Source: Eledone cirrhosa (taxonomy: Eukaryota). Taken from it: a stretch of 64,000 nt of DNA. The position numbers and the translations under genes are program-made. The DNA is taken from assembly GCA_964016885.1 (NCBI GenBank), contig OZ024740.1, forward strand, positions 117,862,001 to 117,926,000. The letters are read 5' to 3'. The notes under the pieces are model-generated. The model had not been told where the DNA came from, searched no databases, and saw nothing but the letters and a program-made list of their open reading frames with translations. Of this stretch, positions 14,792 through 63,834 are shown in pieces; the first letter of the stretch is position 1, and every line of letters begins with the position of its first letter.

Positions 14792-15327
14792 CAATAAATG
14801 TAATCTGAGATTTTCGAATATTAATAATAACATTCGATTCGTTTGGAACTTTGCAAACAAGCCTCAATTTTATAGCCATGTCAGTAGAATGAACCCTTCA
14901 TTCTTACGAAACTTTCTGTTTTATTTGAATTTGGCAAAGCCGGCCAGTTATCGCTCGTATACCGGAAACTGGCTTGCCAGTCTGCTGATATGCAAATCTG
15001 GCTGAACAGTGGATCTGCTAATATGCAGATCTGACTGATCAGCCAGTCTGCTAATATGCAAAACAGGCCGATCAGTCACTGTGTATTTTCGAAACTAGCA
15101 TATATTTTCACTAGCTCTGACAGTTTGGCAGATGAAGAGTGAGCTGTACTGATGAAGGGTGATACCCAGAAACATTAGTGTCTGCAGTTCTGTTTACATG
15201 CCAACACAAGAGCAAGAATGAAGGGTTCATTCTACTGACATGGCTATAAAATTGAGGCTTGTTTGCACAATTACAAACGAATCGAATGTTATTATTAATA
15301 TTCGAAAATCTCAGATTACATTTATTA
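14792..15327. mobile_element. HHR-containing non-autonomous insert with inverted duplication of its 3' part
   Basis: 14792-14905 is the reverse complement of 15213-15327; flanked by TA tracts; contains the HHR at 15141-15190. Confidence 0.75.
15141..15190 (+). ncRNA. Type I hammerhead ribozyme
   Basis: gagctgta-CTGATGA-agggt gat accc a-GAAA-cattagtg-TC-tgcagttc. Stems I, II and III pair; GUC cleavage triplet. Confidence 0.85.
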
Positions 15328-15460
15328 TATATACATATACATATATATATATATATATATACATATATATATATATGTATACACCCCCACCACACACACA
15401 TAAATATATATATATATATATATATATATATATATATATATATATATATATATATATATA

Positions 15461-16442
15461 TCATAAAACATGTCTATAGAATCACAAGATAAAATATATA
15501 CCATTTCCTCTCCAAATTAGTATAATTAACTATATAAAAAATCGAATAGACCAGGCTATAAGAATGAGGTTTCTATGAAGAAATCTCCAACAAATAACCG
15601 AAACTAGCCCTTCGCGTCGGCCGCAACGGAATATTTATCGAATATTTCGACAGCGTAATTGCCCAGATACAGTCAATTAAACAGAATTAGGTGTAAAATA
15701 AACTAGGAGAAAATAGAATACATTTAAATACCTCTACCATGGTTTCGTCCGCATTTTGAGATTTCCAATAATTATGTAATAATTATGTAACTCGATCATC
15801 GGATTCATCAGGAGATTTGCTCTGATCTAGACACTAAATTTTCCAAAGTGATCGCGCCAAGAATTCATTCAAAATGGCTAAGAATTGTGACGTAGTAGCG
15901 GTCAGGTTGGAAGGGTGTGGTAGTTGCTTACGGCTGGTGGTTTTTTTGCTAGAAAGCACAGCACAATACAGCCAAATTTGTATCTCAACCTAATGGGAGA
16001 TTATTACATATAAAAGTTTACATATATATATATATATATATATATATATATATATATATATATATATATATATATACATACATATACGTGTTTTGCAACG
16101 GGTCACTTTGTGGCTCAATGAAAATTTAATAAATTATATAATCAGAGCTATATATCATAAAAGATGTCTATAGAATCACAAGATAAAATAAATACCATTT
16201 CCTCTCCCAATTAGCATAATTAACTATATAAAAAAATCGAATAGACCAGGCTATAATAATGAGGCTTCTATGAAGAATTCTCCAACAAATAACCGAAACT
16301 AGCCCTTCGCGTCGGCCGCAACGGAATATTTATGGAATATTTCGACAGCGTAATTGCCCAGATACAGTCAATTAAACAGAATTAGGTGTAAAATAAACTA
16401 GGAGAAAATAGAATACATTTAAAAACCTCTACCATGGTTTCC
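15461..16442 (-). mobile_element. Partial tandem of an HHR-bearing non-coding element
   Basis: 15461-15746 is repeated at ~16156-16441; flanked and interrupted by (TA)n. Confidence 0.7.
15726..15818 (-). ncRNA. Type I hammerhead ribozyme with extended stem II
   Basis: Reverse complement: aaatctc-CTGATGA-atccg...cggac-GAAA-ccatgg-TA-gaggtattt; palindromic stem III. Confidence 0.75.
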
Positions 16443-18135
16443 TATATATATATATATATATATATATATATATATATATATATATATATATATATATATA
16501 GGAACAAGTATGACCCCGACGGCAGAGCTCAAGCCGTTTCGATGGCTAATTCTAGACTAAGTAAAACTTTTTAGCCTGGTAAATAAATAGCCAAACTTAT
16601 CAAGGGGTACTTCCTTATATGGTAAGACAGTAATTGTCAAGAGGATTGGTTAAAATTTGTTATAAAGACAAATAAATCTATCATTGCATTTGGTGGGAGG
16701 TAGGGGTGGCGAACTTGCCGGTAGAACAAAGAGGGGGTGAAGAAATCCAGTCAGGTGTTGAAAGTGAAATCTATAAAGCAGATTCTATGGATAGTGTATA
16801 AAAAGTCGAAAAATTGTACTGGAGAAAAGGAGGGAGGGAGTTGAAAGAATAGGTAAGTCGAAAGGGAGTAAAATAAAAATAAAATAAAAATAATAATAAA
16901 TATATAAAAAAGTTTTGATAATGAGAAATGAATAAAAAAAACAAAAACAGTAGAGTCTAGAAACACCTGCTATAATTAGTAGGTGGTATTGCTAAGCTAT
17001 AGAAAAGTTTAATAGGTAGAGAATGGGAAAATACTAAATAGGAGATTGTAGTTGGTAGTGAAAAAATTTAAATCAGGCTTTACAGGGATCTAATACAGCT
17101 GCTATAAATAGTTAGTAAAGCGTATTCAGCCAATGCTATCTTACAAATACAGGTTAATAAGTTGAGAAAAAAACTAAAACTAAATAAGAAATTTAGAAAT
17201 TGTAGAATTGGAGTACCAACAAAAAAGAAGAAATTACAGGGGTCTAACACATCTGCTAAAAATAAGGCGTAATCGGCCAATTCTATCTTAAAATTACGGG
17301 GGTGGGAGTACTGAGGCTACAGAGGACCGATGGGCTGCATCAGGGTAGACGAAAGGTGAAAAACAGACAAGGAAGAAGATCTGGGGTGGAAGGAAGTCAT
17401 AGGATGAGATGGGGGGGGGGGGAGAAGGAAACGTAGAGGAAAAGAAAAAAGGTACGTCTACCTATGTAAGCAGGGGTTTCCCCTTCCAAAATCGGCAAGT
17501 GGCGGGTATCAGCCCTTGTCTACCCACCCGGGTCGTTATGGGGTTTGAGGGCGAGGTAAGTCCTACGCAATCAGTGTTTGCATGCGGGTACCAGTTCGTC
17601 TTTATATATATATATATATATATATATATATATGTACGTAATGTGTGTATGTATCGGTTACAAACAAGGTATTAGGGTTGAATTTATCGACTAAAATCTT
17701 TGATGTGGTGCATTTGCATGATTGCAGATTAATAATGGAAACGCATAAAATAATAAATGTATGAACAGAAGACAAGATAATATATTTTGTTCAGCTAGGT
17801 CCTCAATATTTTTTATCTTATGGTTTTTCTTTAATGTTTTACGTATCCATCGTTCATATATCCGTTCGATATACAGAAATGAGTACACACAAACACACAC
17901 ACATATGTATATATATATATATATATATATATATATATATATATATAGATAATTTAATATATCAACTAACATAAGCGCACAGATGCACGCCTATGCCAGC
18001 AAATACACATGTTATGTCATAGTACCTAGGTGGTTCAATGCAGGAGGATGCAGAACAATAATATAAAAGACGTAAAATAAGAAAATCTTTAAAAAAAATT
18101 TTTTTTTTAATTTTTTACTTACTTACTTAAATTTT

Positions 18136-18217
18136 CACTCCAACTAATTAGTTTCTGCAATGGGATAAAGACAGTTACGTAATCTAACTGTCGAGAATTC
18201 ATTGCGTCATCAGGGAG
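18136..18217 (-). ncRNA. Hammerhead ribozyme (array A, left arm)
   Basis: Reverse complement of the motif at 19154-19235. Confidence 0.75.
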
Positions 18218-19153
18218 TCTATTCTCAGCTAAGTCTCCAGGCAATGCGCGGACACTGGCGGCTCATATAAAAATAATAATAATTCGGTAGATGGAACAGC
18301 TAGCGAGGACTGATTTCCATGCACTGAAATCCTCACTGCCTCTAGTCAAATGGCCGATTCTAAAGAATCAATCACGTGACACAGAGGCTAGTCAGAAGGA
18401 ATGGGATGGTAAGATGACAGACGCCTACTAACACCCCCCAAAAAAATTTTTTTAGAAGTGGTTTTGGCAGGTTTGCTCGACAAATTAGTGATTTGGAGAT
18501 AAATATAGATAATTTAATATATCAACTAACATAAGCGCACAGATGCACGCCTATGCCAGCAAATACACAGGTTATGTCATAGTACCTAGGTGGTTCAATG
18601 CAGGAGGATGCAGAACAATAATATAAAAGACGTAAAATAAGAAAATCTTTTTAAAAAAATGTTTCACTCTGGAGTGAAAATTTAAGTAAGTAAGTAAAAA
18701 TTAAAAAAAAAATTTTTTTTAAAAGATTTTCTTATTTTACGTCTTTTATATTATTGTTCTGCATCCTCCTGCATTGAACCACCTAGGTACTATGACATAA
18801 TCTGTGTATTTGCTGGCATAGGCGTGCATCTGTGCGCTTATGTTAGTTGATATATTAAATTATCTATATTTATCTCCAAATCACTGATTTGTCGAGCAAA
18901 CCTGCCAAAACCACTTCTAAAAAAATTTTTTTTTGGGGTGTTAGTAGGCGTCTGTCATCTTACCATCCCATTCCTTCTGACTAGCATCTGTGTCACGTGA
19001 TTGATTCTTTAGAATCGGCCATTTGACTAGAGGCAGTGAGGATTTCAGTGCATGGAAATCAGTCCTCGCTAGCTGTTCCATCTACCGAATTATTATTATT
19101 TTTATATGAGCCGCCAGTGTCCGCGAATTGCCTGGAGACTTAGCTGAGAATAG

Positions 19154-62516: not shown

Positions 62517-62606
62517 GTAGGTGACGCGCGTTTCGCCACTGATCAGCTAAAGCTTCGATCTGTATCGATCCTACCCGACTCAATGATCGGCAGCTCGACG
62601 GACCCT
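62517..62606 (-). ncRNA. Hammerhead-like motif with long stem II and altered core
   Basis: Reverse complement: gggt-CCGTCGA-gctgccgatca...tgatcagtggc-GAAA-cgcgcg-TC-acct. A related fragment at ~56107-56160 has CCGACGA. Confidence 0.5.
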
Positions 62607-62704
62607 TTAAAATGCTATAAGAAAATGAAATACATGCTATGTGGTAAAGACAGAAGTTCAAGAGTTTGACAATATGAGTTGTCTTGATTGGTGGGAAGGA
62701 TCAA

Positions 62705-62980
62705 TGTATTGGCCTGTAGTGCATGTGGGGGTGGATGTGAAGATAAAATGTTGGTGACGGTCGTTGGCTGCGGTGGGCTGTGGTGTGGTGGTGGCGGATT
62801 GGCTTTGGCCCGTAGTGTATGTGGTGGTGGAGGAGATGATAAGATGTTGGTGACGGTCGCTGGCTGCGGTGGGCTGTGGTGTGGTGGTGGCGGATTGGCT
62901 TTGGCCTGTAGTGTATGTGGAGGTGGTTGTGATGATAAGATGATGGTGATGGTCGGTAACTGGGATGGGCTGTGATGTGG
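62705..62980. repeat. 96-bp GT-rich minisatellite, ~2.8 copies
   Basis: gtagtg.atgtgg.ggtgg...gataa.atgttggtgacggtcg recurs at 62716, 62812 and 62908. Confidence 0.85.
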
Positions 62981-63630
62981 GCTTAGTGTGTTGTCGGTAG
63001 ACGGGTGGGCGTGTGTGGGGTGTGGTTGTGGTGTTGTTGTTTCTGGTAGTGGCGTTTGAGGTGGTGTGGTGTATGTGTTGGTGGTGCCGAGCCCATGGGG
63101 AGATACATACCTAGACACTCTTAGTCTGACAAATACGTTGTATATATATATATATATATATATATATATATATATATATATATATATATATATATACATG
63201 TGCCTATATACTGACATATATACATATGTACACACCTACATACACACACATGCACGCGCCCACATAGATCCACACACACATATAGCTATATGCATATATA
63301 CACACCTGCATGTGCATGCGCGCGTGTGGATATATATAGAGTGGGGGAGTATCGGTGGCGTTGGCGTAGAACAAAGATAGAGGGAAGGTGAGAGCCAATG
63401 GGGATGGTGTTGTACCTATAGACATATACACACATACACACATACTGATATGCACACATACACGTACACACACGTATACATAAACATACACATACACACA
63501 TACATACATACATACATACATACATACATACATACATACATACATATACACACATATGTATATACATATATATATATATATATATATATATATATATATA
63601 TATATATATATATATATATATATATATATA

Positions 63631-63834
63631 GTTTTAATATAGATGAGATTCTACAGGACTAGAACTGTTTCATTCTTTAGAAATCATCAGGATTCTCAGT
63701 GATTCCTGATGATTTCTAAAGAATGAAACAGCTCTAGTCCTGTAGAATCTCATCTATATTAAAACCTTTATACTCTGCAATGTATTGAGTACCTTACTTA
63801 CTGTGGTTACCTCCGATTCAACACGGAATAACGC
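63631..63834. mobile_element. Palindromic mini-element with two divergent hammerheads, between (TA)n
   Basis: 63631-63765 is a near-perfect palindrome. Plus HHR at 63701-63749: gattc-CTGATGA-tttct aa agaat-GAAA-cag..ctg-TA-gaatc; mirror copy at 63647-63695(-). Confidence 0.85.

What the first reader, a model, noticed from the sequence alone, without database searches (positions are those of the whole stretch)
14792..63834. Candidate system: hammerhead-ribozyme RNAs written into (TA)n microsatellites as divergent two-armed inserts, probably by Penelope-like RT/GIY-YIG
Seen: at least eight mutually unrelated non-coding units carry a minimal type I HHR or HHR-like core. Where an insert has an inversion and its sense strand can be assigned (14792, 17946, 23991, 31567, 37701, 39326, 39672, 49516, 63631), the left arm is antisense and the right arm is sense, and both 3' ends lie at or close to (TA)n. 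The protein-coding PLE fragments (24210, 54930, 56907) have the same geometry and target. Established: PLEs carry minimal HHRs, non-LTR retrozymes are tandem HHR repeats that yield circular RNAs, and twin priming gives divergent inversions in L1. Inference: a PLE enzyme cuts (TA)n and both 3' ends prime cDNA synthesis on a diverse pool of ribozyme-processed, possibly viroid-like RNAs. I do not know of this uniform divergent-array architecture being described, but I could not check the literature.
Basis: partly seen in the sequence, partly recalled or inferred. Interest (0 to 1): 0.92.

Follow-up and report, generated by a model that had tools for sequence, protein, structure and literature searches.

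The report
Ribozyme repeats inserted like Penelope retrotransposons
Short non-coding repeats that carry a self-cutting RNA motif sit in this animal genome as back-to-back arrays with the same insertion footprint as Penelope-like retrotransposons, which is genomic evidence for the proposed but unproven idea that these retrotransposons copy such RNAs into DNA.

Summary
Four of the nine inversion sites are non-coding tandem units with a type I hammerhead (310, 441, 466 and 556 nt; non-LTR retrozymes). The other five are 5'-truncated ends of coding Penelope-like elements (PLEs), and three of these have no hammerhead core. Head-to-head arms, a one-sided tail and (TA)n targeting are published PLE hallmarks, and PLE mobilisation of retrozymes has already been proposed. 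I did not find in print that retrozyme arrays carry this footprint. All 59 two-armed retrozyme inserts scored are divergent. In 57 of 59, one arm ends at a fixed site A and the other at a site B about 25-120 nt downstream; none is A+A or B+B. 65 of 68 outer ends abut (TA)n, which appears to pre-date the insert. Inner ends avoid the ribozyme cut (0 of 68). In 10 of 18 310-nt loci one variant runs through both arms, as expected from a single template. Best model: a PLE protein cuts (TA)n, both DNA ends prime on one RNA (probably a circle), and the two cDNA ends join. Self-cleavage, circles and the partner PLE remain untested.

The parts
14757..15333 (.). 441-nt retrozyme family (R440), two-armed insert: antisense arm about 14757-14905 ending at site B, sense arm about 14913-15333 ending at site A; hammerhead 15141-15190 (+), predicted cut after 15182
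   Evidence: L131
17939..19863 (.). 556-nt retrozyme family (R560), two-armed: antisense arm 17939-18664 (B end), sense arm 18671-19863 (A end); hammerheads with a long stem II at 18137-18218 (-), 19154-19235 and 19710-19791 (+)
   Evidence: L101
39672..46934 (-). 466-nt retrozyme array (R466), antisense arm, 15.6 units, outer end at site B, 15 hammerheads
46934..49034 (+). R466 sense arm, 4.5 units, outer end at site A, 4 hammerheads
49517..50387 (-). 310-nt retrozyme array (R310), antisense arm, 2.8 units, outer end at site A, 3 hammerheads
50388..52775 (+). R310 sense arm, 7.7 units, outer end at site B, 8 hammerheads
49338..49521 (.). Interrupted (TA)n tract left of R310; C interruptions on the same strand as in the right tract
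52775..52957 (.). Interrupted (TA)n tract right of R310
23991..24188 (.). Family S: two-armed 3' end (pLTR) of a Hydra-like coding PLE, A end left, B end right; no hammerhead core found
37701..37890 (.). Family S two-armed insert, A left, B (about 80-nt tail) right
39320..39486 (.). Diverged family S two-armed insert, A left, B right (read by eye; the script did not pair it)
16501..17602 (-). Family S single antisense arm reaching from site A back to the last codons of the PLE ORF
31563..31887 (.). Family F316: two-armed 3' end of a second Hydra-like PLE; hammerhead 31609-31650 (-), sense copy 31698-31739 with a changed core; A left, B right
63631..63834 (.). Family F637: two-armed 3' end of a third Hydra-like PLE; hammerhead 63699-63751 (+); A left, B right; closest relative found for R310
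24208..25550 (.). Neptune-like PLE fragment with an internal (L1-type) inversion: antisense 24208-24554 abuts sense 24555-25550 with a 10-nt overlap in element coordinates; outer right end at A
34641..37493 (+). 5'-truncated single-armed Neptune-like PLE: RT and GIY-YIG frames 34859-35695 and 35641-36948, ends at site B
54930..55916 (.). Two-armed 3' end of a relative of the Neptune-like PLE, tail (B) left, A right (read by eye)
56907..57434 (.). Two-armed Neptune-like pLTR: antisense A arm 56910-57334, sense B arm 57330-57434; the A arm reaches further 5'

Best explanation
The four non-coding families are non-LTR retrozymes inserted in trans by the RT/GIY-YIG protein of a Penelope-like element. 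SHOWN in DNA: divergent arms; one outer end at site A and one at site B; targets in TA tracts that appear to pre-date the insert; inner ends at scattered phases; both arms of an insert share one sequence variant; coding PLEs in the same genome leave the same footprint. INFERRED: (1) the protein, probably a dimer, binds the A-B segment of one RNA and cuts both strands of (TA)n; (2) the two 3'-OH ends prime reverse transcription at A and at B, helped by a few U/A bases; (3) both polymerases run through many units, round a monomer circle (best fit for R310) or along a multimer (some R466); (4) the two cDNA 3' ends anneal by microhomology, sometimes with short templated inserts, and each primes the other's second strand; single-armed inserts arise when one end captures the other cDNA at once. 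The hammerhead would make the template but does not set the insert's ends. My odds: PLE as the enzyme about 0.85, two independent primings about 0.65, circle as the main R310 template about 0.6.
For: Geometry: 18 of 18 R310 and 16 of 16 R466 two-armed inserts are divergent and A+B (0.5^34 is about 6e-11 if each arm chose freely); 12 of 12 R560 and 11 of 13 R440 are A+B, none A+A or B+B. Coding PLEs do the same: 9 of 9 Neptune-like pairs, 25 of 25 F637 and 5 of 5 F316, 6 of 6 longer copies, 28 family S inserts with no B+B. Target: 65 of 68 outer ends at (TA)n against 25% and 10% background; interruptions on the same strand on both sides in 11 of 12 informative loci, p=0.006; an 11-nt duplication across one PLE insert (L254/L255). 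Template: 0 of 68 inner ends at the cut; a variant through both arms in 10 of 18 R310 and 10 of 15 R466 loci; the five R310 variants inside the hammerhead that run through whole arrays all lie at tolerated positions, while two private changes hit the core G. Two primings: in 8 non-tandem inserts the tail-less arm reaches further 5' than the tailed arm; in L092 the outermost units of both arms share variants. Literature: PMC11167929 (both strands nicked and extended, two start sites bracket the tail, predicted dimer); PMC8557442 (Hydra, Neptune and Naiad elements and (TA)n).
Against: No RNA evidence of any kind was obtained. No PLE partner was found by sequence for R440, R466 or R560 among the PLE loci fetched; R310 resembles the F637 end only over the hammerhead and its surroundings. 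R466 arrays are often mosaics (22 partly shared variants, 5 at the same unit index in both arms), which needs multimer templates or later exchange. Near-palindromic junctions are common (22 of 30 family S pairs, 25 of 25 F637 pairs in a biased sample, 5 of 18 R310 within 9 nt) and also fit fold-back. B arms are longer than A arms (24 of 34, p=0.002), so the two primings are not symmetric. No empty site was seen. Two R440 inserts (L137, L146) do not fit the A+B classes.
Confidence: 0.68

Rival explanations
1. Same PLE enzyme, but the second arm is made by fold-back: one strand self-primes at a palindrome and copies itself (self-priming on an antisense template is proposed for PLEs in PMC3846280), and the one-sided tail is a resolution product.
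For: Both arms stop within 12 nt of each other in 22 of 30 family S and 25 of 25 F637 pairs, often with a palindromic junction; 5 of 18 R310 junctions lie within 9 nt. Shared variants in both arms are expected here too.
Against: A copy cannot hold sequence its template lacks: in 8 non-tandem inserts (L042 first pair, L049, L050, L161, L166, L172, L241, window 56907) one arm alone has the tail and the other alone has further 5' sequence. L092 matches arms by distance from the outer end, not mirrored from the junction. The F637 sample was selected by a query that held junction bases.
Confidence: 0.17
2. A short PLE-made seed is inserted and the arrays grow later by unequal crossover or slippage, as suggested for retrozymes in bioRxiv 10.64898/2026.07.22.740005.
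For: Some private variants recur 4 or 5 units apart (L061, L077, L084, window R466), which shows local duplication does occur.
Against: Most non-fixed variants are confined to one unit (30 of 36 in R310, 67 of 89 in R466). Both arms are multimeric in many loci and keep precise A and B ends. Coding PLEs of about 3.5 kb also occur as 3-4 copy tandems. Growth soon after insertion cannot be excluded.
Confidence: 0.08
3. No PLE involvement: breaks at fragile (TA)n tracts capture retrozyme cDNA or DNA by host repair, or a DNA transposon with terminal inverted repeats carries them.
For: Junctions have 0-7 nt overlaps or short templated inserts typical of end joining. One window insert (53694-54212) has the same terminus on both sides.
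Against: Repair capture would not give two fixed, unequal ends per family, and a TIR transposon has equal ends. The unequal A+B ends match coding PLEs here and in print (PMC3846280, PMC8557442).
Confidence: 0.05
4. Assembly artefact (chimeric fold-back reads or collapsed repeats).
For: Inverted repeats are a known read artefact (own knowledge).
Against: Fixed family-specific ends on many contigs, unit-private variants, and TA loose ends at sites A and B in contigs of run X1 (X1 is not shown to be independent of the assembly).
Confidence: 0.02

Closest known systems
Metazoan non-LTR retrozymes (PMC7229834; bioRxiv 10.64898/2026.07.22.740005)
   Same: Non-coding tandem units of a few hundred nt, low GC, one type I hammerhead per unit, in a genome with PLEs; both papers name PLEs as the likely mobiliser.
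   Different: Neither main text reports inverted arms, (TA)n targets or fixed unit ends. Here the arrays are dispersed head-to-head inserts with a PLE tail footprint. Their RNA-level hallmarks were not testable here.
EN+ Penelope-like elements, Hydra and Neptune clades (PMC8557442, PMC3846280)
   Same: Inverted 5'-truncated copy at the 5' end, tail at one end only, (TA)n targets, tandem copies, hammerhead near the 3' end. Five of the nine cited sites and all three cited coding fragments are such elements.
   Different: The papers call the one-sided tail optional or frequent; here it is close to a rule and extends to non-coding circle-like units. Family S lacks the canonical hammerhead said to be universal in Hydra.
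Anolis Poseidon PLE in vitro (PMC11167929)
   Same: Both target strands nicked and extended, AT-rich target, two adjacent internal start sites bracketing the tail, ribozyme cut not needed.
   Different: Other clade; no strand difference in start site was seen in vitro, whereas the genome here pairs one A with one B; no circular or trans template was tested.
Non-autonomous PLE derivatives such as Chlamydomonas MRC1 (PMC8557442)
   Same: Non-coding, mobilised by PLEs, often multicopy head-to-tail.
   Different: Those resemble the 3' end of an autonomous family and belong to a mostly hammerhead-less clade; three of the four units here showed no match to the PLEs fetched.
L1 twin priming (recalled, not read here)
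   Same: Left arm antisense, right arm sense, both target ends used as primers.
   Different: In L1 the arms abut and do not overlap. That fits window 24208, L230, L233 and L239, but not the A+B inserts, whose arms repeat the same sequence.

Membership tests
non-LTR retrozyme | Tandem units of roughly 150-1000 nt | tested here: met
   310, 466, 556 and 441-nt tandem periods
non-LTR retrozyme | Type I hammerhead in each unit | tested here: met
   11 of 11 full R310 and 19 of 19 full R466 positions in the window; R560 and R440 too
non-LTR retrozyme | No protein coding, GC under 50% | tested here: met
   Longest ATG frames 30-75 aa, GC 0.35-0.39
non-LTR retrozyme | No LTR, PBS or PPT | not tested
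   No LTR-internal-LTR layout seen, but PBS and PPT were not searched
non-LTR retrozyme | Self-cleavage of the transcript | not testable with these tools
   Only indirect: array-wide variants spare the core. In the 2026 preprint 8 of 9 tested elements did not cleave in vitro
non-LTR retrozyme | Expressed as circular RNA | not testable with these tools
   No RNA holder listed; laid runs are contigs of unknown kind
non-LTR retrozyme | Target-site duplication longer than 4 bp when present | tested here: inconclusive
   Shared direct motifs in 5 of 34 flank pairs against 4 of 200 controls, but 1 of 34 against 1 of 200 at the stricter cut; TA masks them
PLE insertion footprint | Inverted 5'-truncated copy head-to-head with the sense copy | tested here: met
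   59 of 59 two-armed retrozyme inserts
PLE insertion footprint | Tail at one end only | tested here: met
   57 of 59 A+B, none A+A or B+B
PLE insertion footprint | Homology of the unit to a pLTR of an autonomous PLE | tested here: inconclusive
   R310 against the F637 insert: score 82-83, shuffles at most 66; no match for R440, R466, R560 among the few PLE families fetched
PLE Hydra clade (families S, F637, F316) | Single ORF, RT then C-terminal GIY-YIG; RWK, DKT, CxCX5C, CxxC and CxH motifs; no CCHH | tested here: met
   Read by eye in the L261 frame (RWR for RWK) against PMC8557442 section 11; F637 and F316 parents align to it at 38-49%. Pfam gave no hit; no tree was built
PLE Hydra clade (families S, F637, F316) | Canonical hammerhead in the pLTR | tested here: inconclusive
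   Present in F637 and F316; not found in family S even with one core change allowed
PLE Neptune clade (34641 family) | CX2-5CxxC linker and CCHH-type endonuclease after the RT | tested here: met
   CX4CxxC and the Cys/His pattern read by eye; Pfam gave no relevant hit; Nematis not excluded, no tree built
PLE Neptune clade (34641 family) | Hammerhead in the pLTR | tested here: not met
   The scan found none in L241; a core-like motif with a 2-bp stem I is visible by eye near 37195
viroid-like RNA | Ribozymes in both polarities | tested here: not met
   One hammerhead, one strand, in each of the four units
viroid-like RNA | RNA-to-RNA replication | not testable with these tools
   No stranded RNA data
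L1-type twin priming | Arms abut without overlap; inverted arm primed internally | tested here: not met
   A+B arms overlap over whole units; met only by internal inversions of the Neptune-like PLE

The most novel reading that the evidence does not exclude
PLE integration is a concerted double-ended reaction: a protein dimer primes both ends of a cut (TA)n tract at two fixed sites of one RNA, and the two cDNA ends then prime each other's second strand. On a ribozyme-made circle both polymerases roll round, so a whole two-armed multi-unit array is written in one event. Several unrelated retrozymes would then have acquired their own A-B start element, and R310 would descend from the pLTR of a Hydra-clade element still present in the genome.
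Probability: 0.42. Interest if true: 0.82.

Novelty: new variant of a known kind. Interest (0 to 1): 0.62.

Why it matters
Which enzyme moves animal retrozymes, and whether their arrays are written from RNA circles or grown by crossover, is open: the papers read offer co-occurrence and phylogeny only. A shared integration footprint is more direct evidence. The near-strict A+B pairing also constrains the unresolved PLE mechanism and favours two coordinated primings over fold-back. The genome supplies young PLEs with long open frames and small RNAs with mapped start sites, so the question can be tested in vitro; if it holds, PLE proteins can write multimers from small circular RNAs into TA tracts.

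Tried and rejected
First hammerhead scan was too strict and missed R310; it was replaced and widened for long stem II. 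The hit at 32176 has a 7-nt unpaired loop 3 and was not followed. Rfam miRNA hits are TA or inverted-repeat noise below gathering. Pfam found nothing useful in the PLE frames; the homolog search gave mostly unnamed proteins at about 40% identity, the best named one from a bivalve. Sequencing runs: no RNA holder listed, which is no evidence on expression. Runs X3-X5 under other organism labels each hold R310 as one circular-looking 340-nt contig at depth 12-49; a tandem array gives the same contig and carry-over is possible, so this is used neither for circles nor for transfer. A long parent for R440 at L273 proved to be a 5.2-kb local duplication. The direct TSD search was inconclusive. TA synthesis at insertion was considered and is disfavoured by same-strand interruptions. 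Empty sites were not obtained. Earlier scan findings: nothing returned. The Terminon paper (PMC5850863) is not held. Corrections: mislabels L058 and L261 as pairs with equal ends because the reference stops inside a tandem (their true outer ends are in L242 and L262), and counts three internal inversions (L230, L233, L239) as 'A5'; these five were dropped before the count of 8. My notebook lists L231 as convergent; it is a divergent A+B insert.

Full report
Setting. The window is G000:C1:117862001-117926000 of a 3.0-Gb assembly in 1796 contigs. It is AT-rich and dense in (TA)n runs. I did not determine the organism.

Observation. Self-comparison and reading confirm inverted structures at all nine cited sites. 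A descriptor scan for type I hammerheads gave 7 strict hits in the window with arrays collapsed, against a mean of 0.05 in 20 local shuffles; the relaxed core gave 11 against 1.15. Every full unit of the 466-nt array (39672-49034) and of the 310-nt array (49517-52775) carries one, on the minus strand in the left arm and the plus strand in the right arm. The 17946 insert has a hammerhead with a long stem II. As circles the four units fold better than shuffles (z -4.2 to -11.0, 25 shuffles each) and have a hammerhead on one strand only. Their longest ATG frames are 30-75 aa.

What the nine sites are. Four are non-coding tandem units: R440 (14792), R560 (17946), R466 (39672), R310 (49516). Three (23991, 37701, 39326; family S) are the 3' end of a coding element: longer copies run back through about 1.2 kb of UTR into a GIY-YIG frame, and the tail runs on into the next copy's ORF. 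Its 784-codon open frame has the motifs given for the Hydra clade in PMC8557442 section 11; I found no hammerhead core in it. 31567 and 63631 are ends of two more Hydra-like families and do carry hammerheads. The coding fragments at 24210, 34641 and 56907 belong to a young Neptune-like family: the top 150 matches are 98-100% identical with open frames up to 1217 codons. Clades rest on motifs read by eye; Pfam gave no support and no tree was built. R310 is related to the 63631 family (26 of 28 nt in the hammerhead; local score 82-83 against at most 66 in 200 shuffles).

Sampling. Genome searches score only the best candidates (38 of 191 for R310, 40 of 313 for R466, 33 of 2143 for R560, 40 of 951 for R440), so samples lean to young copies close to my queries. 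I fetched 20 R310 and 20 R466 loci chosen from the listed matches, favouring multi-unit ones; many showed one strand only in the list. R560, R440, S, F316 and F637 are the top 30 matches each; S, F316 and F637 queries included the tail, so a B arm was selected and only the partner is informative.

Geometry. Counting from the ribozyme cut, R310 arms end at A (127-139) or B (160-172) and R466 arms at A (208-233) or B (296-303). All 18 R310 and 16 R466 two-armed inserts, window included, are divergent with one A and one B; one of the 16 is a diverged neighbour in L097. R560 gives 12 of 12 distinct inserts; R440 gives 13 divergent inserts, 7 inside my A and B windows, 4 within 1 nt of them, and 2 atypical (L137, L146). 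Total: 59 of 59 divergent, 57 of 59 A+B, none A+A or B+B. Many loci are single-armed (for example 14 of the R560 loci, 17 of 30 R440). Coding PLEs follow the same rule: 9 of 9 Neptune-like pairs, 25 of 25 F637, 5 of 5 F316, 6 of 6 longer copies, 28 family S inserts without a B+B case, and two long family S inserts. Tail-to-tail pairs occur only across a TA tract, as separate inserts (L039, L245, flanks of L061). A second class of internal, L1-type inversions occurs in the long Neptune-like element (window 24208, L228, L230, L233, L239).

Target. 65 of 68 outer ends have (TA)4 or more within about 25 nt, against 25% of 4077 flank positions and 10% of window positions. Where both flanking tracts have C or G interruptions they lie on the same strand in 11 of 12 loci (22 of 34 uninformative; p=0.006), as expected if one tract was split. 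One PLE insert has an 11-nt motif repeated in both flanks. No empty site was seen.

Template. Inner ends are spread over the unit (KS p=0.07 and 0.37) and 0 of 68 lie within 5 nt of the cut; junctions show small overlaps or short inserts, up to 27 nt. Arms reach 17.9 units. A variant runs through both arms in 10 of 18 R310 and 10 of 15 R466 loci; in R310, 30 variants are private to one unit, 6 are partly shared, and none of these is shared by same-index units of the two arms; in R466, 67 are private, 22 partly shared, 5 same-index. R310 therefore fits one monomer copied many times; R466 also shows period-2 and mosaic patterns, which need multimer templates or later exchange. A homogeneous linear multimer is not excluded for R310. 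Of 8 distinct array-wide R310 variants, 5 fall in the hammerhead, all at tolerated places (N7, the extra base before stem II, loop II twice, an A-U to G-U pair), while two private changes hit the core G; small numbers, but consistent with selection on ribozyme function in transmitted copies.

Two primings or fold-back. Co-terminal, palindromic junctions are frequent in short PLE ends and fit either model. In 8 non-tandem inserts each arm holds sequence the other lacks, which a self-copy cannot give, and L092 matches arms from the outer end. Purified Poseidon protein nicks and extends both strands and starts at two sites that bracket the tail (PMC11167929). I therefore favour two primings on one RNA; the joining step is inferred.

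Reads. No RNA holder was listed. Of 6 listed runs 4 were laid on one R310 monomer, all as contigs. X1 has the unit at very high depth, TA loose ends at positions matching A and B, and about 99% of a variant that is array-wide in only one of my 21 loci; my sample was ranked by likeness to the other allele, and X1 is not shown to be independent.

Literature seen. Parts 1-3 of 5 and term passages of bioRxiv 10.64898/2026.07.22.740005 (supplements closed); parts 1-2 of 4 of PMC11167929; section 11 and passages of PMC8557442; discussion and passages of PMC7229834; passages of PMC3846280, PMC4209133 and PMC7761336. Supplements were not read; the model figure of PMC7229834 and PLE tables could bear on novelty. 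PMC3846280 calls head-to-head the most frequent PLE arrangement and places the tail on one of the inverted pLTRs; PMC8557442 repeats this and adds (TA)n targeting; PMC4209133 notes hammerhead pairs on opposite strands and proposes circular templates for PLE tandems; PMC7229834 and the 2026 preprint propose PLEs as retrozyme mobilisers without insertion footprints. Nine searches found no paper describing retrozyme arrays as two-armed A+B inserts in (TA)n; most subscription papers are not in the library. L1 twin priming and end-joining signatures are recalled.

Verdict. Real and regular, built from known parts. The new element is its transfer, with near-strict end pairing and single-template signatures, to four non-coding ribozyme families. 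New variant of a known kind; interest 0.62.

Noticed in passing
window 53694-54212: Insert between two long TA runs with the same 31-nt terminus on both sides; either a TIR element or an equal-ended exception to the A+B rule.
   Followed up: no
window 53453-53634: About 55-nt inverted arms around a tRNA B-box-like motif, TA run on the right only.
   Followed up: no
window 15462-16021 and 16087-16442: A further hammerhead family on the minus strand (long stem II, 15728-15818); two single-armed copies whose ends look like an A end and a tailed B end (by eye).
   Followed up: partly
window 22167-22335 and 23871-23945: Older fragments of the R440 family; the hammerhead at 22217-22265 has a changed core.
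   Followed up: no
window 1-10263 and 60440-61668: Rearranged tandem copies of a non-LTR retrotransposon (RVT_1 hit) with a restriction-like C-terminus by eye; unrelated to the finding.
   Followed up: no
window 20860-21160 and 57917-58369: GIY-YIG-type frames of other Hydra-like PLE families.
   Followed up: partly
L241 (G000:C6:54985700-54994000): Two near-full Neptune-like copies head-to-head; the ORF has a long asparagine-rich stretch, recalling the N-rich inserts of rotifer PLEs in PMC3846280.
   Followed up: partly
G000:C1:91475490-91486533, C1:437201077-437212086, C2:51277802-51285274: Whole Hydra-like PLEs of about 3.5 kb in 3-4 copy tandems, most with 784-786 codon frames; family S seems to multiply without a canonical hammerhead.
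   Followed up: partly
family S loci L031-L060: Both arms stop at one hotspot about 60 nt upstream of site A, at a small hairpin; could be a polymerase block, an RNA 5' end or an unrecognised cleavage site.
   Followed up: partly
window 50665-50700 region of the R310 unit against 63631-63834: R310 holds a degenerate antisense match to the F637 hammerhead region just upstream of its own hammerhead, like a two-armed F637 insert (29 nt, 79%); a possible clue to its origin, weak.
   Followed up: partly
L268 (G000:C2:59046800-59052000): A and B arms of one F637 insert are separated by about 2.4 kb that includes a LINE RT frame of another class; capture or later insertion.
   Followed up: no
runs X3, X4, X5: R310 at 99% identity or more in runs labelled as three other organisms, low depth, run kind unknown; carry-over or diet not excluded.
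   Followed up: partly
L273 (G000:C1:429633700-429640200): 5205-bp local tandem duplication, identical over the 1296 nt seen, holding several PLE-type ends.
   Followed up: partly
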